A stretch of DNA of 64,000 nucleotides from Bacteroidales bacterium (GCA_040769065.1 JAXGLU010000001.1:2783556-2847555), one strand, 5' to 3'; counted from the stretch's first letter, positions 34,526 to 47,106 are shown. The notes: a model not told the origin generated them from the letters alone. Numbers and translations: made by a program.

Positions 34526-35150
34526 AAGGGAAGGGCAGGGCGAGTGACGGAAAACATCCGGTGATGATGTTGTCAGATGTTCGATAATAATATTGCCGGC
34601 CCCTGTCTTCTTGAAAATTGTTTCTCAATCTGCCTTTCAATCATATATGTTGAGATCATATTCCACAATGCAATTATGTTTTGGGAATACAATCCCCAAA
34701 TATGTATTATACGTATTTTTTTAATTATTCTCCTGCTTTGGAAACTGCGCATAGATTGAGGATGACTCAAAAAGTCGCGTACAGAATGCTGCCTGCCACA
34801 CTCAGATTTAACCAATAATTTCCAGGGCAAGTATGAAGCTTACTACAAGGTGGTGGAAGCCACAAAACAGGAAAAAGAAGATGTATTACATCATAATTAC
34901 AAAAAACTTATATTTGTTAACCTGTGGTCTGAAAAAAGGTAGTAATTAATTTTACCCATGTTGTACTTATTTTTCCCAAAAACCAATTTACAACATTGGG
35001 TCCCGATAAACCGGGATACGGGGAGTAACTCTCTTATTTTTTTAGTCGGACATCGATAGTATCGGATATCCCATGTAATTTCAGCGACCTGATTCCGTTC
35101 ACTTTATGTATAAGTATAGCAACAGTTTTTCAGGAAACAGATTAACTACC

Positions 35151-36146
35151 ATGCCAAAGAATAAGAACGCCTATGTCAGGTACCTGATAATCCATTCGCA
35201 GATAAAGCGGAACAGGTACAAATATGGATTCCCTACCCTCGAGAATCTCAGGGAAGAGCTTGAGGATCAGGGCTACAATGTTTCCTTATCCACTATCGAA
35301 AAGGATCTCAGCTTCTTGAAAAATGAAAGGGGCGCTCCCATTGAATACGACAGGACACAGCGGTGCTACTGCTATACTGAGGAATGGGAGTTCGACATTC
35401 CTCTGTCGCCTGAGGATGTCAGGATGATCAGGATGCTCGTTCACAAGCTGGAGATATTCGGGGAGGCTGAGGAATTCAAGATGCTGAAGGAATCTATCGA
35501 CAGATTGACTAATCAATTTGACCTGATGAACCAGTATCCAAACGACAAGATCAATAAGTACATACTGTTTGAATATATGAAAGGCTTTGCAGGTAAACAC
35601 ATGCTCTCGGATATCTATGAAGCCATTTACAATAAGAAGGAAATAAGATTCACCCATTGCAGATTCGAATTGGACCAGCCCACTCAAAGAACTCTCCAGC
35701 CATACATCCTGAAGGAGCATCGTAACAGGTGGTATGTGATCGGCAAGGAGAAGGGTTCCCCGAAAATCTTCGGCCTCGACAGGATAAGCAACCTTGCCGT
35801 AACTGACAATGAATTTATCAATGATCCGGACTTTTACGACGAGATATTCAGGGTGCTTTATGATTCAGTGGGAGTCTTTGCCTTTGGAGTCAGGTCAGAA
35901 GATGTCGTTCTTCATTTTACCGAAGATGAAGCCCCCTATATCAAATCGCTTCCCCTCCACCGTTCACAGCAGATAATTGATGACAGCGAAACTGAAGGAT
36001 TGACTGTAAAAATTCATGTCAAGGTAACCCCCGAATTTATCAAGGACTGCATCCTCCGCTTCGGCGACAAGGTAAAAGTCGTTTCGCCCGAAAGCCTAGC
36101 CGCGGAAGTCAGGGAAATATGGGAGAGAGCTCTTCGCCAGGCATAA
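35151..36146 (+). CDS. WYL-domain transcriptional regulator (HTH-WYL-WCX architecture)
   Basis: The track ORF starts at 35106; MPKNKNAYVRYLII at 35151 is the likelier start. The N-terminal region is wHTH-like (LSTIEKDLSFLKNERGAPIEYD). The WYL core is PYILKEHRNRWYVIGKEKGSPKIFGLDRI. A C-terminal extension follows. Confidence 0.75.
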   Translation: MPKNKNAYVRYLIIHSQIKRNRYKYGFPTLENLREELEDQGYNVSLSTIEKDLSFLKNERGAPIEYDRTQRCYCYTEEWEFDIPLSPEDVRMIRMLVHKLEIFGEAEEFKMLKESIDRLTNQFDLMNQYPNDKINKYILFEYMKGFAGKHMLSDIYEAIYNKKEIRFTHCRFELDQPTQRTLQPYILKEHRNRWYVIGKEKGSPKIFGLDRISNLAVTDNEFINDPDFYDEIFRVLYDSVGVFAFGVRSEDVVLHFTEDEAPYIKSLPLHRSQQIIDDSETEGLTVKIHVKVTPEFIKDCILRFGDKVKVVSPESLAAEVREIWERALRQA

Positions 36147-36236
36147 ACGGCAGGTAGTAAATGACGCCCTATTTCCCGATTGACTCCGCAAATACAATGC
36201 AGAGTGGCAGTTTTTATTTGTCTCAAATTTCAGAGC

Positions 36237-36868
36237 ATGGATAGTGGAAACTTTTTTGACCGGAATCTTCTGGGCCGGCTGGAGCATGTCTCTTCAGCCG
36301 CTTCCGGAAGAGAACTGTCATTCAGGGAAGTGATCGAATCGGGATCCGATGTGGAAGAGATAGCTTCCTTTCTCGGGATATCCCCCGTTAAGGCGTTTTT
36401 TTTTCCTGTTTTACAGAACTGAGTCTCCAGAGGACAGTCACCCTCGAGACATTGTCGAAACATCTCAGGTGCAGTGTCCTTAGACTTATCAACTGTATGA
36501 ATGAATTTGAAGCGCTTGAGAAAAAGGGTTACCTTCATAAAAGCTTCAGGAAAAGGGGCAGGAAACACACTTGCACCGACATGTCCTTCTCAGTTCCCCA
36601 CCACTTCATTGAAGCTTTGAGGAAGGCCGACCATGCCATAAACACCATCCAGAAAATCCTCCTTCAGTCCCTGGAGAATTTTGAGGGTATACTTATCGCC
36701 ACCACCAATCTTAGCTTCAACCTCGATAAAGCCTTTGAGAGGCGCTTCACTTTCAGGATAGAGTTCCCGATGCCCGACGCCGGCGCGAGAAAGAGGGTCG
36801 GGTATTTAATTCCTGGCAGCCGGTTGCTGCAGTGGCGAATGAAATCTTATGGAATTGATCAAGCATAA
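36237..36868 (+). pseudogene. decayed AAA+ ATPase gene (frameshift in a T9 run plus loss of the Walker A/B core)
   Basis: Frame A reads MDSGNFFDRNLLGRLEHV...EEIASFLGISPVKAFF and stops at 36420-36422. Shifting one frame at the T9 run (36396-36404) continues as FSCFTELSLQRTVTLETLSKHLRCSVLRLINCMNEFEALEKKGYL. Later only the AAA lid-proximal part survives (LLQSLENFEGILIATTNLSFNLDKAFERRFTFRIEFPMPD). No GxxGxGKT or DExx block is present. Confidence 0.7.
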
Positions 36869-36901
36869 AAGCCTGTGCAAAACGTTTGAATAGTATAAAC
36901 A

Positions 36902-37429
36902 ATGGGAAAAAAGATGAGCCAGAAGCTTATAATGCTGTTTGCTGTTTTAATGATGGTCCTGCCGCTTAATGCCCAGCGCAACAGGAAGTCCGGCGAGAAA
37001 GTCGTTTTTTATCCTGTTTCAAGGATAGTTGATGGCGACACTTTCTGGATTGACGATGGAAGCGAAAAGGGGATCAAGATAAGACTCACGGGCATTGATG
37101 CACCCGAGACCAGGAACAGCAGGAACAGGGTGAAATCTGCTTTCGGGGAGGAATCAACCCGCTACCTGACCGGCCTGATAGCCGGGAAAAGGGTAAGGCT
37201 CGAATATGATATTGACACTCTCGATCGCTACGGCCGTACACTGGCTTATGTGTATCTCGAGGATGGCACCTTTGTAAATGCCAGCATGGTAAGGAACGGC
37301 TATGCCTCTGTCATGACCACTCCGCCAAACGTGAGATATGCAGAAACATTTGTGGAACTGGCGCGAAAAGCCAGGAAAAGGAAGTTGGGACTGTGGAATG
37401 AAACGACGCTTTCAGGAAATGAATTCTGA
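36902..37429 (+). CDS. secreted thermonuclease (staphylococcal nuclease, SNase family)
   Basis: 175 aa with a signal peptide. Motifs: VSRIVDGDTFWI...IRLTGIDAPET...DRYGRTLAYVYLEDGTFVNASMVRNGYA...ARKRKLGLW. Confidence 0.85.
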   Translation: MGKKMSQKLIMLFAVLMMVLPLNAQRNRKSGEKVVFYPVSRIVDGDTFWIDDGSEKGIKIRLTGIDAPETRNSRNRVKSAFGEESTRYLTGLIAGKRVRLEYDIDTLDRYGRTLAYVYLEDGTFVNASMVRNGYASVMTTPPNVRYAETFVELARKARKRKLGLWNETTLSGNEF

Positions 37430-37459
37430 AAGCTGTGATTAATACCGAAATGCCGGCTG

Positions 37460-37525
37460 TGATATCATAATGATATCATTTTAGTATCAATATGATATCT
37501 TTTTGACATCATATTGATATCATAA
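37460..37525. repeat. six phased 11-bp tandem units built on the palindrome TGATATCA
   Basis: Units start at 37460 TGATATCATAA, 37471 TGATATCATTT, 37482 TAGTATCAATA, 37493 TGATATCTTTT, 37504 TGACATCATAT and 37515 TGATATCATAA. The array lies between the convergent 3' ends of the nuclease gene and hsdM. Confidence 0.8.
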
Positions 37526-37636
37526 TATCCTGAATAATTTGTAAAAGAGATATGGAAGCTTTCTATTTATGCTCTTAAACCTCATAATCAAAGAATAATA
37601 CTCTTAAAAACAATTTAGTACGGGTGCGGAGGCTCT

Positions 37637-39247
37637 TTAAATTGGAGATAATCCCAATTCTTTCAAAAATTCATTGTGTTTATCTGTATTCATTTTTATG
37701 CTTTTATTTATTTCCGTTAATCTTGTATTTACTTCCTTTAAGTCAACTTTCGCTTCCTCAACGGACGTACTTACATATCTGGAAATATTAAGGTTATAAC
37801 CGTTTTTTTCTATTTCTGCCATTGAAACCCTGCGTGAATAACGTTCTCTTTCTTGTCGGAATTTATAGGTATCTACAATTGTTTTAATATGTTTATCACT
37901 TAAGCTATTCTGCCTTTTTTCTTTATTAAAGTGTTCGCTTGCATTAATAATTAAAACATCATCTTCCTTTTTACATTTCTTTAGCACTAAAATACAAACA
38001 GGAATACCTGTTGAATAAAACAGATTTGAAGGCAAACCAATAACTGTATCAATATTGTTATCTTCTAAAAGCTTTGTGCGTATTCTTTCTTCTGCACCTC
38101 CACGGAATAAAACTCCGTGGGGCAGAATAATTGCCATAACACCTTCTTTTCCGAGGAAGTGAAAACCATGTAACAAAAATGCAAAATCGGCTGCTGATCT
38201 TGGCGCTAATCCATAACTTTTAAATCTGAAATCTTCTGCTATAGTATCGTCCGGATTCCAACGTAAACTAAAAGGCGGATTTGCTACTATTGCATCAAAT
38301 TCTATTTTTTTTGCCGGATTCATCTCGCTGAATATGTCCCATTGATTGAGTAAAGTATCTCCGTGAAATATCTCAAACTCGGTATCTTTCATTCCATGCA
38401 AAAGCATATTCATGCGAGCAAGATTATAGGTTGTGATGTTTTTCTCCTGACCGTATATTTTACCTACACTTCCGCCATTTTCTTTTATACGCTTCCTCAC
38501 ATTCAGTAATAGGGAACCCGAACCACAAGCAAAATCCAGTATTTTATCAAATTTTTTCTTCTTGCCCATACTTGGATCTTGACTATCTAAAGTAACAATC
38601 TCGGATAGAATAGTTGATATTTGCTGTGGAGTATAAAATTCACCTGCTTTTTTGCCGGAGCCTGCGGCAAACTGTCCAATCAAATACTCATAAGCATCTC
38701 CAAGCGTATCTGAATCCATTGAAAAATCAGCAATTCCCTCAGCAATTTTCTGGATTATGGTACAAAGCTTTTTATTTCTGTCTGCTGATGTTTTACCTAA
38801 CTTTTCCGAATTCAGATTGATTTCGGAAAACAAACCCTGAAAAGTGCTTTCAAACGATTCGTTTTCTATATATCTAAATCCTTTATCTAAGGTAACAAGC
38901 AATTCTTTACTTTGGATTCTTGCCATTTCCGCAATATTGCTCCACAAATATTGGGGTTTGATTACATAGTGGATCTTGCGACGCATTTGCTTTTCAAAAT
39001 CTACTATATCTTTTTGATTTTGTTCGTACCAAATAGACAAAGATGTTTTACCTCCATTGCCATTTAAAACAGGATAATCTCTTCCCAATTCTTTTTTTGC
39101 CGCTTCCTCGTAGTTATGAGATAAATACCTAAGAAATAAAAACGAAAGCATATAATCGCGGAAATCGTCCGCGTTCATTGCTCCACGCAATTCATCTGCA
39201 ATTTTCCAAAGTGTATTTCCTAATTGTGTTTGATTATTTTCTGTCAT
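37637..39247 (-). CDS. hsdM: Type I restriction-modification system, DNA methyltransferase subunit M
   Basis: 536 aa. The HsdM N-terminal domain is LWKIADELRGAMNADDFRDYMLSFLFLRYLS. The AdoMet motif is ILDFACGSGSLL. The catalytic motif is IVANPPFS. Confidence 0.92.
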   Translation of the reverse strand: MTENNQTQLGNTLWKIADELRGAMNADDFRDYMLSFLFLRYLSHNYEEAAKKELGRDYPVLNGNGGKTSLSIWYEQNQKDIVDFEKQMRRKIHYVIKPQYLWSNIAEMARIQSKELLVTLDKGFRYIENESFESTFQGLFSEINLNSEKLGKTSADRNKKLCTIIQKIAEGIADFSMDSDTLGDAYEYLIGQFAAGSGKKAGEFYTPQQISTILSEIVTLDSQDPSMGKKKKFDKILDFACGSGSLLLNVRKRIKENGGSVGKIYGQEKNITTYNLARMNMLLHGMKDTEFEIFHGDTLLNQWDIFSEMNPAKKIEFDAIVANPPFSLRWNPDDTIAEDFRFKSYGLAPRSAADFAFLLHGFHFLGKEGVMAIILPHGVLFRGGAEERIRTKLLEDNNIDTVIGLPSNLFYSTGIPVCILVLKKCKKEDDVLIINASEHFNKEKRQNSLSDKHIKTIVDTYKFRQERERYSRRVSMAEIEKNGYNLNISRYVSTSVEEAKVDLKEVNTRLTEINKSIKMNTDKHNEFLKELGLSPI

Positions 39248-40383
39248 GCCGTTATTGTTGTATTTTGTTCATTAAAGATTTCAGGAAAATAAAATTCATA
39301 TTTTTCCAAAAATTCATTTAAAATTCGTTTGAATAATTCCTTATTATCATCTCCCATTTCTACGGGGTCAAAAATTGAATATTTGCCATGGCTAAACAGT
39401 TGCAAAGCACGTTCAAAAAGTATTTCATCATCCAAGCCTTGGATGCATTTGTCAATTTTGTTGTAACCAAAAAAACTTGCAGTTTTTTCCAGTATACTTC
39501 TTAATGCATTAAAATGATAAGTGTATATCTTATTGGATTCTACAACTTGCTTTAATTCACTGAGTATTGCGATATGATGGAAAAAAGGTGTATCGCTGGT
39601 ATCTTGCAAAGAATATTCGTTAGGCCCATTAAAATGCAAAAAATAGCGTTTGTTCTTTACCTTTCTGCCAAATTCATTGAATAACACATTAAAGAACAAA
39701 CTGTGGTGCGTCGAAATCACTGTTTTTATTTCATTATCTTCTCTTGTAAGTAAGTTTGCTAAATCGCAAGCTACAGAAATAGCGTTGTTTTCATCTAATG
39801 ATGAAACAGGGTCGTCGATGTAAATATATTTAACCCAATTATAGGCAGGGTCTTTATCAATCGCTAACTGACAAATTGCTAAGAAAAAACACCAGATGAA
39901 TAGGTTTTCCTCACCACGAGAAATTTTTATATTTTCTATTCTTTGTTCATTACCATCAACAACTATACTTCTTGAAAAAGCAACTGTGGAAGTTTCGTAA
40001 TTAATATCAAATCGTAAATCGGCATAATTGTGAAAAAAGGATTCAATTTTAGCATCTAAATCTAATTCTCGTAAGCCTTCAAAGAAAGCTGAATCGGAGT
40101 TTAACTTTAAATACCTGTCAATGTCATTCACAAAGTCGTTATGCCAAGAGAATAAATCTTCAGTAAAAGCATTAAAGTATAAAGTATCTCTTGAAATCAC
40201 ATTGCCATCTGCATCAAACTGTTTTCCAGCCTGTTTAAACTCCATCGACAGTCTTGTCTTTCCTATACCATTATGTGCAAAAAGAAGTACTAAATCTTTC
40301 TCTTTACGGTTATCGCCTGTTAAGTCTTTACGGAGATGGCTGGCTATATCAGTTAGATTGTTAAATTTTGCTATTGTACTCAT
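39244..40383 (-). CDS. PrrC-like ABC-type ATPase embedded in the Type I R-M operon (candidate anticodon nuclease)
   Basis: 379 aa. Walker A is AHNGIGKT (36-43). The ABC-signature-like motif is ISRGEEN (154-160). Walker B/D-loop is YIYIDDPVSSLD (186-197). The H-loop is STHH (224-227). The C-terminal region has R295-x3-E299 and H332. The start overlaps the hsdM... end of the previous gene arrangement: ATGA overlap with hsdM, and a 2-nt gap to hsdS. Confidence 0.55.
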   Translation of the reverse strand: MSTIAKFNNLTDIASHLRKDLTGDNRKEKDLVLLFAHNGIGKTRLSMEFKQAGKQFDADGNVISRDTLYFNAFTEDLFSWHNDFVNDIDRYLKLNSDSAFFEGLRELDLDAKIESFFHNYADLRFDINYETSTVAFSRSIVVDGNEQRIENIKISRGEENLFIWCFFLAICQLAIDKDPAYNWVKYIYIDDPVSSLDENNAISVACDLANLLTREDNEIKTVISTHHSLFFNVLFNEFGRKVKNKRYFLHFNGPNEYSLQDTSDTPFFHHIAILSELKQVVESNKIYTYHFNALRSILEKTASFFGYNKIDKCIQGLDDEILFERALQLFSHGKYSIFDPVEMGDDNKELFKRILNEFLEKYEFYFPEIFNEQNTTITA

Positions 40384-40385
40384 TC

Positions 40386-41627
40386 TTAGTTATTCATTTT
40401 AGGAAACAATCCCTGCATTAATCCTTTTTTATGTAGTTTTAAATGCTCTATTTTTTCCGCTTGTGCTGTGATGAGTTCATCTAAGGAGGATAGGCAAGAG
40501 GATATTTTTTGTTGTTCTTTAATACTTGGTACTAATAATTCTAACTCTTTAATTCTTGAAACTGATACAACATTTTTAATGGCACCACCAGCCGATTGTA
40601 ATAATAAATTGTTTTGGATATTTTCAGTTTCCAATGTGGTTTTGATAAACAAATTGTCATAACCTTTTTTTACTGTTAACTTCAAAAGAGCCTGATTAAT
40701 CACTCCTTCTTTATAATCTTGTGGTATAATGGCAAATTTTCCCATTGTGCCAGAACAGCTCATAATTAAGTCTCCAGACTTAACACAAAACCTCTTTAAT
40801 TCTGAAAACTTATCTTCTTTTATGTAATATCTAAAAGAACTAAAATCACTATAAATAGCATGTGATTGCTCATAAACGGCATATCCTTCTTTTACAAATA
40901 TTTCCTTTTTTAATGCGCTTCCAAAAGGACCTCTAACAAGTTTACATAATTCGTCAAGTCGTTTTGTAATCCATTCCCCATCTTTTTCAAACTCCTTAAA
41001 CCTTAACTTAGGCACTTTTTCACCTTCTTGTGGGAAAAGGTTTTGCATCAAACCTTTTTTATGCTCTTTAAGCAAGTCTAACTTTTGGCTGTGGACTTCA
41101 ATTACTTCATCTAAAGATGAAAGACATAAGGCGATTTTTTGTTGCTCGGATGGTTTTGGAATAGGAACTAGAAGTCCATTAACATCATTACTATTTATGG
41201 CATCAAAGGTTCCTCCTTGAGAAATTTTCTCCCAAGACGATTCGTAAGAAAACAACCATTGATAAAGATATTCTTGGGAATTTGGTTTTTTTGCTCTAAT
41301 AGCCGATAGACCTCTTCCTATACAAGCATTATGTAAAGATTTTGCAACAGTACCAACAGGAGCTCTTACACTCAATAAAATATCTCCAACTTTACATTCT
41401 TTGGTAATTTCAGTTGTATAAATTCTTGGAACTGACAATCTGTTTTTTATATCTGCATTTCCTTGTAATAATGGAAGTCCAATTTTATTTTCATTGTAAG
41501 ATGTGGAACTTGGTGACGACCCCATAATAATATCTGAAACATTTAATAAGTTCAGTATATCCCACTCACCATCGTTTTTAAACTCAGGAAATCTTAATTC
41601 AGGTATTATTTTATTATCTTTACTCAT
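40386..41627 (-). CDS. hsdS: Type I restriction-modification system, specificity subunit S
   Basis: 413 aa. It has two target-recognition domains, each preceded by (E)LRFPEF/KLRFKEF and followed by conserved helices (LKEHKKGLMQNLFP / LKLHKKGLMQGLFP). It overlaps hsdR by 8 nt. Confidence 0.9.
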   Translation of the reverse strand: MSKDNKIIPELRFPEFKNDGEWDILNLLNVSDIIMGSSPSSTSYNENKIGLPLLQGNADIKNRLSVPRIYTTEITKECKVGDILLSVRAPVGTVAKSLHNACIGRGLSAIRAKKPNSQEYLYQWLFSYESSWEKISQGGTFDAINSNDVNGLLVPIPKPSEQQKIALCLSSLDEVIEVHSQKLDLLKEHKKGLMQNLFPQEGEKVPKLRFKEFEKDGEWITKRLDELCKLVRGPFGSALKKEIFVKEGYAVYEQSHAIYSDFSSFRYYIKEDKFSELKRFCVKSGDLIMSCSGTMGKFAIIPQDYKEGVINQALLKLTVKKGYDNLFIKTTLETENIQNNLLLQSAGGAIKNVVSVSRIKELELLVPSIKEQQKISSCLSSLDELITAQAEKIEHLKLHKKGLMQGLFPKMNN

Positions 41628-44586
41628 AAGTTGCTAATCCTGAAATTTCACGCCCTTGGGCTAATTTTTTTAATAATGGTACTAAGTCTTCCATCAGTGC
41701 CAATTCTTTCCCCTTACGTTCTCTCCAGCCAAGTTCTAATGGTTCAAACAGGTCTGTAAGTTTTTCGCCGTCAAAAATCATCCGACTCATAATCTGTTCC
41801 ACAAAGGTTTTCAAATCTGCTGTTTTTATCCCAATTTTGTTTGCAAGGTCAGACAGTTCTTTGTTGTATTTATTGTCTCTAAATATGTCGTAACCCTTAC
41901 GCAAAGTTTCTACGTCTTGCCCGCTGTTCCAGTCCAAACCATTGATATATTCGGTTAAATCTTCCTGTTCGTCCATCAGGTTGGAACTTGAACTTAGCAA
42001 ACTAATAACCTGTGCTTTGGTCATTTTCTGTTTGGCAGGTTTCTTTTGCGTACTGTCGGCAATCAGATTCATAATATAGTCGTAGTCAATGATTGCCGAA
42101 GCAAACAACACAAATTCAAAATCCAATTGTTGTACTTCGGGTGCTGCCGAATCGCCTTCTTTTTGCTGTATGGTTCTTAGCTGCTTAGCGGTTTCGATAT
42201 ATGAACTGCGAAACTCCTGCAATTTCTCTTTTGGTAAAATTGCCTCAATTTCAGCTTGCTGTGATTCATCTATATCAGTATATTGGTCTAATTGGGTTTT
42301 TAATCGTTGTATTTCTTTGAAGTTTTTTATAAATGCAATTCTGGCTGCATCGCCTTTCAGGTTATATACTTCCTGCGGTTCGTTTACCAGATTATGTTCC
42401 TGCATAAATGCCCCCAAAGCTTCAATGGCATTTTTGTATTTGTCAATTACCACAGGAGCGGGATCAACCAACCATATTTCTCTGGCTTTTCCGCTATCTT
42501 CGCCTGAGAACAAAGCAATAGCCTGATTCACGGCTTCCTGTTGCGAACGGAAATCTAAAATATTACCGTAAGGTTTGGTGTCGTTTAGTATCCGGTTGGT
42601 GCGAGAGAATGCCTGAATTAATCCGTGGTATTTCAGGTTTTTGTCAACGTACAAGGTATTAAGGTATTTTGAATCAAAGCCAGTGAGCAACATATCCACT
42701 ACAATGGTAATATCAATCTTGTTTTTGGGCGGATAATCCTTGTTGCTGTATTTTTGGTTCTTTATTCGCGTTTGAATATCCTGATAATACAAATCAAAAT
42801 CGTAGATGTTGTGATTTGTGCCATATTGTAGATTATAATCTTCAATAATGGTTTTTAATGCAGCTTTCTTTTCTTCAGGATTTTGTTTGTTATCCTCTTT
42901 CTCCTGTACCAAATCTTCTTGTATTTGCTGAATGTCTTTATTCCCTTCGGCTGGAGGAGAAAACACACAAGCAATATTCAAAGGAATATAGTCTGGATTT
43001 TCGTTTTGCTTTTTCTTCTGAATTTCTTCGAATAACTGATAATACTCAATAGCATTATTAATAGATGCCGTCGCCATTATAGCATTGAAACGTCTTGAAT
43101 TTGTTGCCGCATCGTGTTTTTCTAAAATGGCTTCAACAACGGCTTGTTGGGTGATGGGTTCGCCTGGCTTTGGATTTTGATTGCCTTTGCCCTTGTAATA
43201 ATCAATGTGAAAACGCAATACATTTTTATCCTCTATGGCGTGCGTTATTGTATAGGCGTGTAATTGTTTGTCAAAAAGATCTTGTGTGGTTTTATAAGAG
43301 GCATAATCCCCTTCTCTGATGTTATAAGTAGCGTTTTCATCAAAAATGGGAGTGCCTGTAAAACCAAATAATTGAGCATTTGGAAAAAACTCTTTTATGG
43401 CTTTGTGATTATCGCCAAACTGTGAACGGTGGCATTCGTCAAAGATGAAAACCATACGCTTTTTGCGAAGAGTTTCTAAACGCTCTTTATAATTCCTTTT
43501 GTATGTGCCATCTAAAGCCAGTCCTAGTTTTTGAATAGTTGTTACAATAACTTTATTGGCATAATCGGTCGATAGCAAACGCCTTACTAATGTTTCGGTA
43601 TTAGTGTTTTCTTCAACGCTTCCCTCTTGAAATCTATTAAATTCTTCTCGTGTTTGTCGGTCAAGGTCTTTACGGTCAACTACAAACAAGCATTTTTCTA
43701 TTTCATTATTGCCTTTGAGTAATGTTGATGCTTTAAAGGAAGTTAAAGTTTTGCCACTTCCCGTGGTATGCCAAATGTAGCCGTTCCCTCTGTTTTGCAT
43801 AACACACTCTTCAATTGCTTTTACTGCATAAATTTGGTATGGTCTCATTATAAGCAGTTTTTGTTCGCTTTCTATCAAAACCATATACTTGCTGATCATT
43901 TCACCAAGTGTGCACTTTTTTAGAAACTTTTTTGTGAAAGGTTCAAGGTGTGTGATTTTCTTATTGTTCTCGTCGGCTAACTGGTAAACAGGTAAAAACT
44001 GTTCATCTGCATTGAATGCAAAATGCTGCATCTTGTTGTTGGCAAAATAATAGGTGTTGCTTCGATTGCTCACTATAAACAACTGCATAAAGCAAAGCAA
44101 TGAATTACCATAACCGTTTCCGGCGTCATTCTTGTAATCCACAATTTGCTGCATTGCTTTTCGTGGTGAAACATCAATTTTCTTTAATTCGATTTGCACC
44201 ACCGGCAAGCCGTTTATCAACAAAATAATATCATAGCGGTGACTACTGTTTTCAGTGTTGATACGTAATTGGTTAATGACCTCATAATCGTTTTTACACC
44301 AATCTTTAATGTTTACCAAAGTGTAATGTAAAGGCGTTCCATCTTCACGCTCAAAATAATCTTGTTCGCGAAGCATCTTCGATGCTGTAAATACATCAGG
44401 ATTTATAATTTTCTCACGCAAACGCAAAAATTCACTTTCAGAAAGATTTACACGGTTAAGTGCTTCAAACTTTTTTTTGAAATTTTGTTCAAGCGTTCTA
44501 CGGTCAACTATATCGGGTCGATAGCTGTACTTTAACTCAGTGAGTTGCCTGATAAGGTTTTCTTCTATTTGAAATTCTTTAGCCAT
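41620..44586 (-). CDS. hsdR: Type I restriction enzyme, endonuclease/translocase subunit R
   Basis: 988 aa. The N-terminal PD-(D/E)xK region is RYDIILLINGLPVVQIELKK. The SF2 helicase motifs are WHTTGSGKTLTSF and FIFDECHRSQ. Confidence 0.92.
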   Translation of the reverse strand: MAKEFQIEENLIRQLTELKYSYRPDIVDRRTLEQNFKKKFEALNRVNLSESEFLRLREKIINPDVFTASKMLREQDYFEREDGTPLHYTLVNIKDWCKNDYEVINQLRINTENSSHRYDIILLINGLPVVQIELKKIDVSPRKAMQQIVDYKNDAGNGYGNSLLCFMQLFIVSNRSNTYYFANNKMQHFAFNADEQFLPVYQLADENNKKITHLEPFTKKFLKKCTLGEMISKYMVLIESEQKLLIMRPYQIYAVKAIEECVMQNRGNGYIWHTTGSGKTLTSFKASTLLKGNNEIEKCLFVVDRKDLDRQTREEFNRFQEGSVEENTNTETLVRRLLSTDYANKVIVTTIQKLGLALDGTYKRNYKERLETLRKKRMVFIFDECHRSQFGDNHKAIKEFFPNAQLFGFTGTPIFDENATYNIREGDYASYKTTQDLFDKQLHAYTITHAIEDKNVLRFHIDYYKGKGNQNPKPGEPITQQAVVEAILEKHDAATNSRRFNAIMATASINNAIEYYQLFEEIQKKKQNENPDYIPLNIACVFSPPAEGNKDIQQIQEDLVQEKEDNKQNPEEKKAALKTIIEDYNLQYGTNHNIYDFDLYYQDIQTRIKNQKYSNKDYPPKNKIDITIVVDMLLTGFDSKYLNTLYVDKNLKYHGLIQAFSRTNRILNDTKPYGNILDFRSQQEAVNQAIALFSGEDSGKAREIWLVDPAPVVIDKYKNAIEALGAFMQEHNLVNEPQEVYNLKGDAARIAFIKNFKEIQRLKTQLDQYTDIDESQQAEIEAILPKEKLQEFRSSYIETAKQLRTIQQKEGDSAAPEVQQLDFEFVLFASAIIDYDYIMNLIADSTQKKPAKQKMTKAQVISLLSSSSNLMDEQEDLTEYINGLDWNSGQDVETLRKGYDIFRDNKYNKELSDLANKIGIKTADLKTFVEQIMSRMIFDGEKLTDLFEPLELGWRERKGKELALMEDLVPLLKKLAQGREISGLATYE

Positions 44587-45380
44587 TACTCTTTTTTCAA
44601 TAAATCTTTGGGATTAACATCCAAAATCTTTGCTATTTCATAAAGTACCTCAAGTCTTGGTTGCTGTCTGTTCTGAACATAGGAATTTACCATTTGATAT
44701 AAAACTGTTATTATTTCTGGGACATCTTGATCAAACCCTTGATTTTCTCTTTCTTTTTCCTTTTGATCTTCTCTGTCAATATTACTTAGAGGCGTTTTAA
44801 TATAGTGGTCAAATAAATCTCTGGGTCCAAATTCGTCTCTATCACGAATGAGAGGACAGCAGAATAGACATTCCATTGGAATTGTCAATCGAAGCAAATT
44901 AGTTGAATTAATTCTTTGTCTAGGGTGATTGAATACTAAATTGTATATTTCTTTTGTTGAACAAATATGTAATGTAACAGGACTTGAAGGTAGTTGACAC
45001 CTTTCAACTCCTTCTTGCTTTCCATAAAGTGCATATAAATGATAAAAGCTTTGTACTGAGCTTGAATTAAGTAATAAGTCTATCTGTAAGCCATTTTTGT
45101 TATTTCTTGCCAAGTAATAATAATGATCAATTCCACACTTAACTTTCTTTGCTTGAATACGCAATTTAAAACAGCCATTTCTTAATATCATCCACCAATC
45201 CCAATCCGCACCATAGAATTTTCCTTTTTTTTGTCTATTGAACTGATAATATCTTATATGATTAGTATGTTGGTCAAAATAATCAAGCAACCAATCTGTG
45301 ATTGACTTTTCTTTTAACTCAGGCTGTCTTGTTAACCAACCATTTACATAAATTTTAGCATCTCTTGCGGTTTGACACAT
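44586..45380 (-). CDS. uncharacterised protein, first gene of the hsd operon (nuclease-like motif plus degenerate XRE-HTH tail)
   Basis: 264 aa. Its stop TAA overlaps the hsdR ATG (TAATG). It contains YGADWDWWMIL...FKLRIQAKKV (D ... Q-x-K, PD-(D/E)xK-like). The C-terminal NRQQPRLEVLYEIAKILDVNPKDLL looks like the last helices of an XRE-type HTH. Confidence 0.6.
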   Translation of the reverse strand: MCQTARDAKIYVNGWLTRQPELKEKSITDWLLDYFDQHTNHIRYYQFNRQKKGKFYGADWDWWMILRNGCFKLRIQAKKVKCGIDHYYYLARNNKNGLQIDLLLNSSSVQSFYHLYALYGKQEGVERCQLPSSPVTLHICSTKEIYNLVFNHPRQRINSTNLLRLTIPMECLFCCPLIRDRDEFGPRDLFDHYIKTPLSNIDREDQKEKERENQGFDQDVPEIITVLYQMVNSYVQNRQQPRLEVLYEIAKILDVNPKDLLKKE

Positions 45381-45520
45381 ATCATATTATTAGTTTTTCT
45401 TTATTTAAAGTCCTTTATTCAGATTGTGGTTTCTGTCTTTCTTACTATTGCCGGCAACGGCTTGGGTTATGTGCAGTGGTGGATTTATGGACAATTTTAT
45501 GTCAGCGCGACAAGTAAAAT

Positions 45521-45547
45521 CGTACGTGAATACGACCTACACGTACC
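45521..45547 (-). promoter_or_regulatory. inverted repeat between the 332-aa gene and the hsd operon (terminator or operator)
   Basis: GTACGTG (45522-45528) and CACGTAC (45540-45546) are separated by 11 nt. On the reverse strand it is followed by ATTTTAC, which is only a weak T tract. Confidence 0.3.
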
Positions 45548-45584
45548 ACCAAAACCGACATTATAGTATTAGCTGCTACCAAAT

Positions 45585-46583
45585 TTATTCTTTTATCATT
45601 TCGTCTATTTTTAAATCAGGAACTATACTAAATCCTGTGGTCTTTGAGAATTTCATATTGTGTTTGAAGTTTCTCATGGAGTCCGAAGGGTCTAATGTTT
45701 CAAAATTTAATCGTTCAATTGTCTGTCTTGGAATAGCAACCGATAAAATTGTTTGTTGTTCTAAATGTCCTGTTGCTAGATTTACTAATTCACTTTGAAC
45801 GTTTATAAAAACAAACTCAACGGGTAAAAACGAAAAAATTTCTCTTGCTACACGGAGAACGCAACCACAAATGTAGTCTTGGTATAATTCGTTAAATTTC
45901 CCCTTTGGCATATTTTTTTTGGAAACTTTTCCGGATCTAGTTTGTGTCAGCACGAAATTAGGAATAACAGTTGTTCCATTTGCGTTCAAAGTTACAGAAA
46001 GATGATTTTTGTCAAAGGAAATGGATAAACCACTACCAATTTCATTAATGTCCGAAAATGGGTCTAAATATTCAAGAATTTTTTTGTATGTCTCGGGGTC
46101 TTGGGCAAGAGCTCCTTTTGCCATTTGTTGATACTTTGTCCATTCTGCAAAGTCTTTTTCATATTTTTTTTGTTCTTTTTCAAATTGTTTCTGGTCTTCA
46201 AATTTTGAATTTTGAATTTTGACTTCAAGTTTTTTTATCTTTTTAGCTTTCAGGCCAAATAGTTTATCAAGGAATGAAGGATTGTAATTAGCAAGGTCTT
46301 TTTCAGCCGTTTTTTGCTGTTTGTTGGTTAGTGTCGGTTTTGTCGGTGCCTGTTCTTCAAACACTTCTTGCCAATCAATAGGTTCACTTGTTTCCTTATG
46401 TATTGAAGAAATGAGTTCTATATATTCGTCATATTCATAAACAACACGTTGCCCATTTTCAAATTCTTGCTGTTTGAGCATTGCTTTATACTGTCTCGCA
46501 GATTCGGTTACTCTCCGTTTCTCAGCTCGTTCCATTCGTCTTACGATTGCTACGACTGTTCGCATATTTCCTCTAAAACTCAT
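45585..46583 (-). CDS. uncharacterised protein with basic/coiled-coil N-terminal half and globular C-terminal domain
   Basis: 332 aa. The N-terminus is MSFRGNMRTVVAIVRRMERAEKRRVTESARQYKAMLKQQE, and the middle is K/E/Q-rich. The C-terminal part is ELYQDYICGCVLRVAREIFSFLPVEFVFINV...ERLNFETLDPSDSMRNFKH. No family name can be assigned from memory. Confidence 0.55.
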   Translation of the reverse strand: MSFRGNMRTVVAIVRRMERAEKRRVTESARQYKAMLKQQEFENGQRVVYEYDEYIELISSIHKETSEPIDWQEVFEEQAPTKPTLTNKQQKTAEKDLANYNPSFLDKLFGLKAKKIKKLEVKIQNSKFEDQKQFEKEQKKYEKDFAEWTKYQQMAKGALAQDPETYKKILEYLDPFSDINEIGSGLSISFDKNHLSVTLNANGTTVIPNFVLTQTRSGKVSKKNMPKGKFNELYQDYICGCVLRVAREIFSFLPVEFVFINVQSELVNLATGHLEQQTILSVAIPRQTIERLNFETLDPSDSMRNFKHNMKFSKTTGFSIVPDLKIDEMIKE

Positions 46584-46961
46584 AATCGTATGTTGTTATT
46601 TGTCATTTATTGGGTGTAGCCAATTCGTTTATATATGTATAACAACTTCCATAATCTCCCTCCGGAGATATTATATGAATTCGTCTATGAATTTACAAAT
46701 TTAATTGTCTCGAGCCGTTTTTTACACAGTCCTTTCCTGTTGATCACAAAAGAGAATCCCGCCACTCCTTATAAATTATCCGATATATGGGAGTTCTAAA
46801 GATAACGTCACTAAATATCGGTTATCGTGTAAAGAAAGGGAGCCAATTTGTACTGATCCCCTCATAAAAAATAGTTGTTTTCAAATTAACAGCACTAATC
46901 CTTAACCTGGAATTTTATCAGACTGCCCTGCTCTTATCCCCAAAGGAACTTTTTACACAAG

Positions 46962-47008
46962 AGGCAAAAAACAAAAAATCCTGTAAACTTTAAGTGATAC
47001 AGGATTTT
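46962..47008 (-). terminator. intrinsic terminator downstream of tRNA-Ala
   Basis: Reverse strand reads AAAATCCTGTA-TCACTTAAAGTT-TACAGGATTTT, followed by TTGTTTTTTGCC. This is an 11-bp stem plus a T-rich tract. Confidence 0.6.
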
Positions 47009-47029: not shown

Positions 47030-47106
47030 TGGTGGAGATTAGGGGAATCGAACCCCTGACCTTTTGACTGCCAGTCAAACGCTCTAGCCAACTGAGCTAA
47101 ACCCCC
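47030..47106 (-). tRNA. tRNA-Ala (anticodon GGC), CCA encoded
   Basis: Reverse strand reads GGGGGTT TA GCTC AGTTGGCTA GAGC G TTTGA CTGGCAG TCAAA AGGTC AGGGG TTCGATT CCCCT AATCTCC A CCA. It folds as a cloverleaf with the G3:U70 alanine identity pair. Confidence 0.93.

What the first reader, a model, noticed from the sequence alone, without database searches (positions are those of the whole stretch)
37637..45380. Five-gene translationally coupled operon: unknown gene - hsdR - hsdS - PrrC-like ATPase - hsdM
All junctions on the reverse strand are tight.
- The 264-aa gene and hsdR share TAATG.
- hsdR and hsdS overlap by 8 nt.
- hsdS and the ATPase are 2 nt apart.
- The ATPase and hsdM overlap by ATGA.

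The embedded 379-aa protein has ABC/SMC-type NTPase motifs: AHNGIGKT, ISRGEEN, YIYIDDPVSSLD and STHH. Its ~130-aa C-terminal region contains R295-x3-E299 followed 33 residues later by H332. As I recall it, the E. coli PrrC anticodon nuclease is ~396 aa. It sits inside the EcoprrI Type I R-M locus. It uses an Arg-x3-Glu ... His triad with almost the same spacing. If this protein is a true PrrC, the locus is a two-layer defence: DNA restriction plus tRNA-Lys cleavage triggered when phage inhibits the R-M enzyme. Here it carries an additional, unexplained first gene.
Basis: partly seen in the sequence, partly recalled or inferred. Interest (0 to 1): 0.55.

Follow-up and report, generated by a model that had tools for sequence, protein, structure and literature searches.

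The report
PrrC-guarded restriction operon, chimeric first gene
This is an ordinary member of a widespread family of phage-defence operons, in which a DNA-cutting Type I restriction system carries an embedded PrrC "suicide" tRNA nuclease; its puzzling first gene is a strain-specific fusion of two broken genes.

Summary

The 379-aa protein is a PrrC anticodon nuclease.
- It scores E=2e-134 over its full length on the PADLOC PrrC model. Its C-terminal domain alone scores 5e-42.
- It is 34-36% identical to canonical EcoPrrC.
- Walker A, signature, Walker B and H-loop motifs, the PrrC box, and R295/E299/H332 (= R320/E324/H356) plus R325, H270 and H290 are invariant in 79/79 homologues.

The order hsdR-hsdS-prrC-hsdM is the rule in this clade. 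It is complete in 62 of 80 loci across many phyla, with the same junctions. It differs from E. coli's M-S-PrrC-R. The E. coli tRNA-Lys recognition peptide is not conserved, so the RNA target is unknown.

The "unexplained" first gene is a chimera.
- Residues 1-230 are a DUF6615 protein with a predicted PD-(D/E)xK nuclease fold. It lacks its last ~34 residues.
- Residues 230-264 are the tail of a ~62-aa XRE regulator gene. In related loci that gene precedes hsdR with the same overlap.
- The break sits at a 4-nt ATGG microhomology inside the recognition helix. The fusion was found in this strain only.

Verdict: a new member of a known kind, of low to moderate interest.

The parts
44586..45380 (-). 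Chimeric first ORF (264 aa): a DUF6615 N-terminal 230 residues fused in frame to the last 35 residues of an XRE-type HTH leader gene. Its stop overlaps the hsdR start (TAATG).
   Evidence: ORF and junction. Pfam DUF6615 matches residues 24-129 and a half HTH_3/HTH_26 matches residues 228-262. Homologues split into DUF6615 proteins covering about 87% of the query and XRE proteins covering the last 13%. The same fusion appears in an independent assembly, L091.
44694..45380 (-). DUF6615-derived segment (residues 1-229). The predicted fold is PD-(D/E)xK-like and the family-invariant residues E24, D59, Q76-A-K78 and C128/C171/C174/C175 are retained. The family's conserved last ~34 residues are missing.
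   Evidence: Family alignment. BLAST to 8 DUF6615 proteins ends at residue ~230, whereas they align with one another to their ends. AF2 model pLDDT 86. Foldseek hits are Rep15, then Hjc, SwaI, HinP1I and the SPARDA nuclease in PDB, and Cas4, UL24 and VRR-NUC in BFVD.
44586..44693 (-). Remnant of the ancestral small XRE HTH leader gene (residues 230-264 plus the stop). It starts in the middle of the recognition helix; helices 1-2 and the promoter/operator region are gone.
   Evidence: The protein is 34/35 identical to the C-terminus of the 68-aa ORF L007:5649-5855. DNA similarity to L007, L021 and L042 begins abruptly at the ATGG at 44693. The intact 62-aa protein aligns end to end with PDB XRE proteins 3bs3 and 3omt.
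41620..44586 (-). hsdR, the Type I restriction subunit (988 aa) with an EcoR124-type C-terminal domain.
   Evidence: Pfam HSDR_N, SWI2_SNF2/ResIII, T1R_D3-like and EcoR124_C. TIGR00348 hsdR at 389 bits. PADLOC REase_I at 1080 bits. 32% identical over its full length to the HsdR of the EcoPrrC locus.
40386..41627 (-). hsdS, the specificity subunit (413 aa) with two target-recognition domains.
   Evidence: Pfam Methylase_S, two stretches. PADLOC Specificity_I full length, E=6.5e-90.
39244..40383 (-). prrC, an anticodon-nuclease homologue (379 aa): an N-terminal Rad50/SMC-like ABC NTPase plus a C-terminal HEPN-type RNase domain.
   Evidence: PADLOC PrrC E=2e-134; the C-domain alone gives E=5e-42. 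Pfam AAA_13. 34-36% identical to canonical EcoPrrC. The AF2 N-domain matches Rad50/SMC/PtuA heads.
39388..39501 (-). Codons for the catalytic core of the nuclease domain: R295, E299, R325 and H332, corresponding to EcoPrrC R320, E324, R349 and H356. R325-x6-H332 forms the HEPN Rx4-6H motif.
   Evidence: These residues are invariant in 79/79 aligned PrrCs. Their roles in EcoPrrC come from PMC1484252 and PMC3025547. The HEPN assignment comes from PMC3710099.
37637..39247 (-). hsdM, the N6-adenine DNA methyltransferase subunit (536 aa) and last gene of the operon.
   Evidence: Pfam HsdM_N plus N6_Mtase, E=8e-106. TIGR00497 hsdM at 394 bits. 36% identical to the HsdM of the EcoPrrC locus.
37430..46970 (.). 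Low-GC island (about 9.5 kb) that holds the operon plus one upstream ORF (45585-46583). It abuts the 3' side of a tRNA-Ala gene at 47030-47106.
   Evidence: GC profile and per-gene GC of 0.32-0.37. tRNA-Ala(GGC). No repeat of the tRNA 3' end was found in the window.

Best explanation
[quoted passage not shown] All genes are translated from one translationally coupled transcript.

Shown here:
- the gene identities, their order and the coupling
- full-length PrrC family membership
- intact NTPase and RNase catalytic residues
- conservation of this exact R-S-PrrC-M architecture in many phyla

Inferred from what is established for E. coli PrrC/EcoprrI:
- HsdM2S methylates host DNA and HsdR2M2S cuts unmodified incoming DNA.
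- PrrC is held latent by contact with the restriction complex.
- When a phage anti-restriction factor disables that complex, the ABC NTPase domain relays the signal (GTP hydrolysis and dTTP binding in E. coli).
- The HEPN-type C-domain then cuts a tRNA anticodon loop. This stops translation and aborts the infection.

Which tRNA is cut is unknown, because the E. coli Lys-anticodon recognition peptide is not conserved in this clade.

The first gene is not a designed fifth component. An illegitimate recombination at a 4-nt ATGG microhomology joined the first 230 codons of a DUF6615 gene (a predicted PD-(D/E)xK nuclease-fold protein) to the last 35 codons of the small XRE-type HTH gene that precedes hsdR in related operons. 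This destroyed the regulator and removed its promoter region, but kept its TAATG coupling to hsdR. By inference, the cassette is now transcribed from the DUF6615 promoter without its own repressor.
For: ORFs and junctions.

Type I subunits.

PrrC identity:
- PADLOC PrrC at 446 bits over residues 7-372.
- EcoPrrC control at 489 bits, and the C-domain alone at E=5e-42.
- L081 carries a 396-aa PrrC with K46, K171, D222, H251, D287, S288, F292, Y294, R320, E324 and H356 and the peptide KYGDSNKSFSY at the published positions. The window protein aligns to it at 34-36% identity.
- K42, K153, S155/G157/E158, D190/D191, H226, H270, H290, R295, E299, R325 and H332 are 79/79 invariant.
- The PrrC-box residues N71-A-F-T-E-D-L-F78, W80 and N82-D83 are invariant in the 11-sequence alignment that includes EcoPrrC.
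- More than 8000 homologues were found, many named 'anticodon nuclease'.

Architecture:
- 62 of 80 genome loci have the complete R-S-PrrC-M order. The other loci are truncated contigs or R-PrrC-M-S variants. None has M-S-PrrC-R.

Chimera:
- Homologue coverage splits into two sets, with supporting alignments.
- There are 13 related loci with a 60-72-aa homologous HTH ORF abutting hsdR, plus 5 with other small HTH ORFs ending 40-50 nt upstream.
- DNA similarity begins abruptly at the junction, at the ATGG microhomology.
- An independent assembly carries the same junction.
- No other protein in the 5.8-billion-sequence search combines DUF6615 with the HTH tail.
Against: - No biochemical evidence is available. 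Latency, the trigger and the RNA target are extrapolated from E. coli.
- The LARP tRNA-Lys determinant is absent, and EcoPrrC-essential N321 and H297 are Ser296 and Ala272 here.
- HsdR and HsdM are only 32-36% identical to the EcoprrI-type subunits, and PrrC is flanked by S and M rather than by S and R. Its regulatory contacts may therefore differ.
- The AF2 model of the C-domain has low confidence around R325-H332, and no solved PrrC exists for comparison.
- Promoter scans gave nothing above chance, so the transcriptional consequence of the fusion is inference only.
- The chimera keeps all DUF6615 invariant residues, so it may still be functional.
Confidence: 0.85

Rival explanations
1. The chimeric first gene is a working third effector. 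On this reading, a DUF6615 PD-(D/E)xK-type nuclease has been recruited as a new first cistron, translationally coupled to HsdR. That would add a further nuclease layer, or a new sensor, to the RM-PrrC cassette.
For: - All family-invariant residues are kept: E24, D59, Q76-A-K78 and the four cysteines.
- The model is confident over residues 1-190, with a nuclease-like fold.
- The reading frame is open and runs in frame into the inherited TAATG junction.
Against: - The fusion was found in this strain only, among 5.8 billion proteins.
- None of the 80 related PrrC loci has a DUF6615 gene.
- DUF6615 genes have no constant neighbours and were linked to a Type I system in none of the eight contexts read.
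- The conserved C-terminal ~34 residues of the family are lost.
- An in-frame join is expected one time in three by chance.
Confidence: 0.15
2. The 379-aa protein is a generic AAA_13/ABC ATPase accessory of the restriction system, RloC-like or of another kind, and is not an anticodon nuclease.
For: Pfam and NCBI-style annotation see only 'AAA_13' or 'AAA family ATPase'. NCBIfam has no model for it. The LARP peptide is missing.
Against: - It matches the PrrC model over its full length, with the next-best family at 34 bits.
- The C-domain alone hits only PrrC.
- Every residue shown to be catalytic in EcoPrrC is invariant.
- At 379 aa it lacks the long coiled-coil/zinc-hook insert that, per PMC3458546 (abstract), characterises the Rad50-like region of RloC.
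Confidence: 0.04
3. The operon is a decaying relic. Loss of the HTH regulator and promoter silenced the cassette, so it no longer functions in defence.
For: The regulator gene and everything upstream of it were replaced. No convincing promoter was detected.
Against: - All four cassette genes are full length against homologues, with no frameshifts or stops.
- The catalytic residues are intact.
- Most related loci have no HTH leader at all and are presumably expressed.
- An upstream DUF6615 promoter is likely to read through.
Confidence: 0.1

Closest known systems
E. coli prr locus (EcoprrI Type IC R-M with embedded PrrC anticodon nuclease)
   Same: - A PrrC gene sits directly after hsdS inside a Type I R-M operon.
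- Same two-domain protein: an ABC NTPase plus a HEPN-type RNase.
- Same catalytic residues and PrrC box, and similar length (379 against 396 aa).
- HsdR carries the EcoR124-type C-terminal domain.
   Different: - The gene order is R-S-PrrC-M instead of M-S-PrrC-R.
- Only 34-36% identity for PrrC, 32% for HsdR and 36% for HsdM.
- The Lys-anticodon recognition peptide is not conserved; TPFFHH takes its place.
- N321 is Ser and H297 is Ala.
- The host is a Bacteroidota bacterium.
The R-S-PrrC-M clade of PrrC loci (e.g. IncC plasmid pNDM102337, Flavobacterium, Chitinophaga, Bacteroides, Paenibacillus and Paraburkholderia genomes)
   Same: Identical architecture and junction types. PrrC is 47-91% identical and HsdR and HsdM 58-83%.
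   Different: - The window has no extra gene between hsdR and hsdS, whereas about ten relatives carry RhuM-like, YhcG-like, ORF6N/KilA-N-like or other inserts there.
- Its HTH leader is broken and fused to DUF6615.
RloC (wobble-nucleotide-excising anticodon nuclease)
   Same: An ABC NTPase fused to a related C-terminal RNase domain with the shared Arg/Glu/His residues (PMC2610378 and PMC3025547).
   Different: According to the literature, RloC has a Rad50-like region with a zinc hook and is rarely linked to R-M (PMC3458546 abstract). The window protein is short and is R-M embedded.
RptR-RMS-DarTG island of EPEC (small HTH repressor as the first ORF of a Type I R-M operon with an embedded abortive-infection module; PMC12255303)
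   Same: The related loci, and the ancestor of the window's operon, begin with a small HTH gene followed by a Type I system with an embedded suicide module.
   Different: - No RptR entry appeared among the PDB sequence matches of the leader; its nearest solved relatives are XRE proteins 3bs3 and 3omt.
- It is coupled to hsdR rather than hsdM.
- In the window it is destroyed.
DUF6615 (Pfam PF20320)
   Same: Residues 1-230 of the first gene are 42-76% identical to family members and keep all invariant residues.
   Different: - It lacks the family's conserved C-terminal ~34 residues and carries a foreign 34-residue tail.
- The family has no published function.

Membership tests
PrrC anticodon nuclease | Full-length match to a PrrC profile, including the C-terminal nuclease domain | tested here: met
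   PADLOC PDLC02360 gives E=2e-134 and 446 bits, residues 7-372 against model positions 18-354 of 372. The C-terminal 142 aa alone give E=5e-42. The canonical EcoPrrC control scores 489 bits.
PrrC anticodon nuclease | N-terminal ABC-type NTPase motifs: Walker A Lys (K46), pre-signature Lys (K168), signature (K171), Walker B Asp (D222) and H-loop His (H251) | tested here: met
   K42, K153, S155-R156-G157-E158, D190/D191 and H226 align with these residues and are invariant in 79/79. The exception is R156, which stands for K171; K171R is functional in EcoPrrC. The AF2 N-domain matches Rad50/SMC heads.
PrrC anticodon nuclease | 'PrrC box' (EcoPrrC residues 68-94), unique to the family | tested here: met
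   LY-NAFTEDLF-W-ND is invariant between the window, EcoPrrC and 9 other homologues. The box is defined in PMC1484252.
PrrC anticodon nuclease | Catalytic Arg320-Glu324-His356 triad, plus essential Arg349, His295 and His315 | tested here: met
   R295, E299, H332, R325, H270 and H290 are invariant in 79/79. The spacing is R-x3-E-x32-H, against R-x3-E-x31-H in EcoPrrC.
PrrC anticodon nuclease | Genetic linkage to a Type I R-M system | tested here: met
   The gene is embedded between hsdS and hsdM with a 2-nt gap and a 4-nt overlap. The same holds in all related loci with enough sequence.
PrrC anticodon nuclease | Lys-anticodon recognising peptide (LARP, KYGDSNKSFSY), present in the tRNA-Lys-specific subset only | tested here: not met
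   The window has DTSDTPFFHH at this position, and the clade motif is TPFFHH. The literature says LARP occurs in only a subset of PrrCs. This limits the tRNA-Lys claim, not family membership.
PrrC anticodon nuclease | Anticodon-loop cleavage activity, latent in complex with the R-M enzyme and activated by an anti-restriction factor | not testable with these tools
   This needs biochemistry and phage assays.
Type I restriction-modification system | Separate HsdR, HsdM and HsdS subunits with their diagnostic domains | tested here: met
   TIGR00348 hsdR at 389 bits, TIGR00497 hsdM at 394 bits, and Methylase_S in two stretches. PADLOC REase_I, MTase_I and Specificity_I all match.
Type IC subfamily (EcoR124I/EcoprrI) | Close relatedness of subunits to EcoR124I/EcoprrI (classically defined by complementation and cross-hybridisation) | tested here: inconclusive
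   HsdR has the EcoR124_C domain, but it is only 32% identical, and HsdM 36%, to the subunits of the EcoPrrC locus. Complementation cannot be tested here.
RloC | Large Rad50-like ABC ATPase with a coiled-coil/zinc-hook insert; usually not R-M linked | tested here: not met
   The protein is 379 aa with no insert between the Walker A and signature regions beyond about 110 residues, and it is R-M embedded. RloC features come from the PMC3458546 abstract.
DUF6615 (PF20320) | Full-length family domain (about 265 aa), including the conserved C-terminal N-x-N...EY...GS segment | tested here: not met
   Only residues 1-230 are homologous and the last ~34 family residues are replaced. The Pfam match is above threshold but partial: 25.2 bits against a 23.8 cutoff.
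XRE/Cro-type HTH regulator | Complete five-helix HTH_3 domain | tested here: not met
   Only model positions 23-54 of 55 match, and the score is below the Pfam cutoff. The break falls inside the recognition helix, as seen against intact 62-aa relatives and PDB 3bs3.

The most novel reading that the evidence does not exclude
There are two novel readings, and neither is excluded by the evidence.

(1) PrrCs of the R-S-PrrC-M clade may cut a tRNA other than tRNA-Lys, and may be wired to the restriction complex differently from E. coli PrrC. They carry TPFFHH in place of the E. coli Lys-anticodon peptide, Ser in place of essential Asn321, and are flanked by HsdS and HsdM.

(2) In this strain the recombination that destroyed the HTH leader may have produced a de-repressed cassette. 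Its new first cistron, a DUF6615 PD-(D/E)xK-fold protein, may itself be active.
Probability: 0.25. Interest if true: 0.45.

Novelty: new member of a known kind. Interest (0 to 1): 0.22.

Why it matters
PrrC is the textbook 'guardian' of a restriction system. This locus shows that the guardian is common in Bacteroidota and many other phyla, in a gene order (R-S-PrrC-M) that the E. coli-centred papers read here do not describe, and with a different putative substrate-recognition motif. That gives a ready set of natural variants for asking what determines PrrC's tRNA target and how it reads the state of the restriction complex.

The chimeric first gene is a clean, datable example of how illegitimate recombination rewires a defence operon. 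It removes the operon's repressor while preserving translational coupling. It also gives a first structural hint, a PD-(D/E)xK fold with a Cys cluster, for the uncharacterised DUF6615 family. None of this changes current understanding, so the find is useful but not surprising.

Tried and rejected
- NCBIfam has no model for PrrC or the upstream ORF, and the only hit for the first gene was a spurious HTH-tail match to Wmk.
- No solved structure resembles PrrC by sequence. Foldseek of the AF2 model matched only the ABC head; the C-domain was too poorly modelled to test a HEPN fold.
- I looked for a constant partner of DUF6615 that might explain the fusion as a simple deletion. Eight contexts showed no shared neighbour and no Type I system.
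- I tested whether the 332-aa upstream ORF belongs to the system. It is a conserved Bacteroidota hypothetical (phrog_38135) found in unrelated contexts, so I left it out.
- I searched for an att-like repeat of the tRNA-Ala 3' end and for island-flanking direct repeats. None was found.
- Sigma-70 and Bacteroidetes-type (TTTG...TAnnTTTG) promoter scans and the terminator scan were at chance level, so I claim no promoter.
- I asked whether the leader HTH is an RptR homologue. No RptR entry appeared among its PDB sequence matches, only generic XRE proteins, so I treat it as an analogue only.
- No paper mentions DUF6615.
- I rejected misassembly of the chimera, because an independent assembly has the same junction. 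The three differences between the assemblies are single-base homopolymer length errors.

Full report
OBSERVATION. On the minus strand they are:
- a 264-aa ORF (45380..44586)
- hsdR (44586..41620)
- hsdS (41627..40386)
- a 379-aa ORF (40383..39244)
- hsdM (39247..37637)

The junctions are TAATG, an 8-nt overlap, a 2-nt gap and ATGA. The quoted motifs and R295, E299 and H332 are present. The block, plus one more upstream ORF, forms a low-GC island. Genes there are 0.32-0.37 GC against about 0.42-0.46 outside. The island abuts the 3' side of a tRNA-Ala(GGC) gene at 47030-47106. The surrounding genes (SusC/SusD pair, ECF sigma/FecR, TonB, S9 peptidase) mark a Bacteroidota chromosome.

THE TYPE I SYSTEM. 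HsdR, HsdS and HsdM are unambiguous and full length.
- HsdR has HSDR_N, SWI2/SNF2, T1R_D3 and EcoR124_C domains and matches TIGR00348.
- HsdS has two Methylase_S domains.
- HsdM has HsdM_N and N6_Mtase domains and matches TIGR00497.

THE 379-aa PROTEIN IS A PrrC. It matches the PADLOC PrrC model over nearly its whole length (E=2e-134, 446 bits), with the next family at 34 bits. As a control, a 396-aa plasmid protein from L081 scores 489 bits on the same model. That protein carries every published EcoPrrC landmark at the published number: K46, K171, D222, H251, D287, S288, F292, Y294, R320, E324, H356 and the peptide KYGDSNKSFSY. The window's C-terminal 142 residues alone hit only PrrC, at E=5e-42. 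The window protein is 34-36% identical to this canonical PrrC.

In a MAFFT alignment of 79 PrrCs spanning 34-91% identity, the following are invariant in 79/79:
- Walker A Lys (K42)
- K153 (= essential K168)
- the signature S155/G157/E158
- Walker B D190/D191
- H-loop H226
- nuclease-domain residues H270 (=H295), H290 (=H315), R295 (=R320), E299 (=E324), R325 (=R349) and H332 (=H356)

The functional importance of these residues in EcoPrrC comes from PMC1484252 and PMC3025547. The family-specific 'PrrC box' (NAFTEDLF-W-ND) is also invariant. R325-x6-H332 is the Rx4-6H motif by which PrrC is classed in the HEPN superfamily (PMC3710099). An AF2 model (pLDDT 75) gives a Rad50/SMC/PtuA-like head for the N-domain. 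The C-domain is poorly modelled, and no PrrC structure exists for comparison.

WHAT DIFFERS FROM E. COLI.

(i) Gene order. E. coli-type loci run M-S-PrrC-R (L081; the same is reported for S. mutans). The window runs R-S-PrrC-M. This is not peculiar to the window:
- Among 80 genome loci recovered with the protein (47-91% identity), 62 have the complete R-S-PrrC-M order. They come from Bacteroidota, Bacillota, Pseudomonadota, Cyanobacteria, Planctomycetota and others.
- Five loci are R-PrrC-M(-S) variants. The rest are truncated contigs consistent with the same order. None has the E. coli order.
- The junction types are conserved too.
- An IncC resistance plasmid, pNDM102337, carries the same arrangement.

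(ii) Substrate determinant. The Lys-anticodon-recognising peptide of EcoPrrC is absent. The clade has a conserved TPFFHH motif instead. The literature already notes that LARP exists in only a subset of PrrCs and that the others probably have other targets. Essential N321 and H297 of EcoPrrC are Ser296 and Ala272 here, and N352 is Gln, a substitution tolerated in EcoPrrC.

(iii) HsdR and HsdM are only 32% and 36% identical to those of the EcoPrrC locus. 'Type IC' membership is therefore suggestive (EcoR124_C domain) but not established.

THE FIRST GENE IS A CHIMERA. A search of 5.8 billion proteins returned two disjoint sets of homologues:
- about 30 DUF6615 (PF20320) proteins of about 265 aa that cover the first ~87% of the query
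- XRE-family HTH proteins that cover only the last 13-28%

DUF6615 proteins align with one another to their ends but with the window protein only to residue ~230. The family's conserved C-terminal segment (N-x-N..G...EY.S.F.GS.G) is missing.

Thirteen of the related PrrC loci have a 60-72-aa ORF homologous to the window's tail that overlaps or abuts the hsdR start. Five more have other small HTH ORFs ending 40-50 nt upstream. The Paludibacter version (L007) ends ...SYNMVNSYVQNRQQPRLEVLYEIAKILDVNPKDLLKEE followed by TAATG. This matches window residues 230-264 at 34 of 35 positions.

At the DNA level, similarity to L007, L021 and L042 starts abruptly at an ATGG at 44693..44690. The same ATGG occurs at the corresponding point of a DUF6615 gene (TTATATAAAATGGAG in L083). 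The join is therefore a 4-nt microhomology.

The intact 62-aa protein is a complete XRE domain, aligning end to end with PDB 3bs3 and 3omt. The break lies inside its recognition helix, so the window retains no DNA-binding domain, and Pfam sees only model positions 23-54 of 55, below threshold.

The fusion is real. An independent metagenome assembly (L091) has the identical junction and differs from the window only by three homopolymer length errors in 2.6 kb. It is also unique, since no other protein combines the two parts.

WHAT DUF6615 MIGHT BE. The family has invariant E24, D59, Q76-A-K78 and four cysteines. The AF2 model (pLDDT 86, pTM 0.81) resembles human Rep15 and then a series of PD-(D/E)xK nucleases:
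- in PDB: Hjc, SwaI, HinP1I, the SPARDA nuclease and MspJI
- in BFVD: Cas4, UL24, VRR-NUC and YqaJ

TM-scores are modest, so the fold assignment is plausible rather than proven. DUF6615 genes sit in variable, often mobile contexts with no constant partner and no Type I linkage. No paper mentions the family.

MECHANISM.

Shown: a single translationally coupled operon encoding a complete Type I system and an intact PrrC, preceded by a chimeric ORF.

Inferred from the E. coli paradigm (PMC1484252, PMC3710099, PMC12707154):
- HsdM2S modifies host DNA and HsdR2M2S restricts incoming DNA.
- PrrC is held latent on the complex and is activated when a phage anti-restriction factor disables it.
- PrrC then cuts a tRNA anticodon loop, aborting the infection.

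Inferred for this strain:
- The recombination removed the leader regulator and its promoter/operator.
- The cassette is therefore now read from the DUF6615 promoter without autoregulation.
- The closest functional analogue is a small HTH first gene controlling a Type I operon with an embedded suicide module, RptR of EPEC (PMC12255303). No RptR entry appeared among the leader's PDB sequence matches.
- Promoter scans were uninformative.

VERDICT. The extra gene is explained as a lineage-specific chimera.
- The system is a new member of a known and very common kind. More than 8000 homologues were found, and a standard defence-system profile recognises it at E=2e-134.
- Interest is low to moderate.
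- What remains of value is the under-described R-S-PrrC-M clade with a different putative recognition motif, the recurrent HTH leader, and a first structural hint for DUF6615.

Noticed in passing
window 47030-47106 (-), with a hairpin at about 46975-47007: A tRNA-Ala(GGC) gene followed by a terminator-like hairpin sits exactly at the right edge of the 9.5-kb low-GC island. No integrase lies in the island, and no repeat of the tRNA 3' end occurs elsewhere in the window.
   Followed up: partly
window 45585-46583 (-): A 332-aa ORF lies just upstream of the operon in the same island. It belongs to a conserved hypothetical family of about 330 aa in Bacteroidota, with no Pfam match. It matches phrog_38135 (E=7.5e-35), and one UniRef cluster is named 'restriction endonuclease'. 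Its homologues lie in unrelated contexts, one of them next to an MNT/HepT toxin-antitoxin pair.
   Followed up: partly
window 35106-37429 (+): Three genes lie next to the island: a WYL-WCX regulator-like protein (35106-36146), a remnant of an AAA+ ATPase gene with only the C-terminal part left (36452-36868), and a secreted staphylococcal-nuclease homologue (36902-37429) that hits PADLOC model C3a212 'SNc+LTD'. This may be a second, partly decayed accessory or defence patch.
   Followed up: partly
L002:7932-8786, L025:7973-8830, L063:3946-4809, L010:7684-8757, L012:7743-8771, L033:7684-8709, L026:7316-8023, L039:7900-8808, L042:7820-8638, L043:7935-8774, L019:4211-4543, L020:8368-8817: About a dozen related R-S-PrrC-M loci carry one extra, variable gene between hsdR and hsdS. 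By eye these look RhuM-like, YhcG/DUF1016-like PD-(D/E)xK, ORF6N/KilA-N-like, DinD-like or GxxExxY-like. I did not run them against Pfam. The R/S junction appears to be a hot spot for embedded cargo.
   Followed up: no
L034, L036, L038, L040 (Bacteroides, Dysgonomonas, Epilithonimonas, Butyricimonas): A sub-variant has prrC directly after hsdR. Here hsdS follows hsdM and, in L034, L036 and L038, is accompanied by a second, inverted hsdS copy. This resembles phase-variable hsdS shufflons.
   Followed up: no
L082 (E. coli IncC plasmid pNDM102337, NC_019045.2: 135596-150699): A conjugative multiresistance plasmid carries the same clade of PrrC (52% identity). A TrlF-family AAA-like ATPase and an 'RNA-binding domain' gene are inserted between hsdR and hsdS.
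   Followed up: no
L002, L007, L008, L013, L014, L021, L024, L025, L042, L048, L051 and others (ORF ending at the hsdR start): A recurrent 60-72-aa XRE-type HTH gene is translationally coupled to hsdR (TAATG or ATGA) in Bacteroidota R-S-PrrC-M operons. It is an apparent analogue of RptR or C-proteins for a Type I system. No paper describing it turned up in the searches run here.
   Followed up: partly
L083:8001-13928: An intact DUF6615 gene on a conjugative element (relaxase, coupling protein, integrase). It is followed by a 1675-aa protein with sacsin-type HATPase, Schlafen/AlbA_2 and caspase (Peptidase_C14) domains, possibly an uncharacterised defence pair.
   Followed up: no
window about 45204 (A8 tract in the first gene), about 45935 (A8 in the 332-aa ORF), about 44597 (A6): The only differences between the window and the independent assembly L091 are one-base contractions of three poly-A tracts, each of which would frameshift a gene in L091. 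These are most likely sequencing errors in L091, though slippage-prone tracts cannot be excluded.
   Followed up: partly
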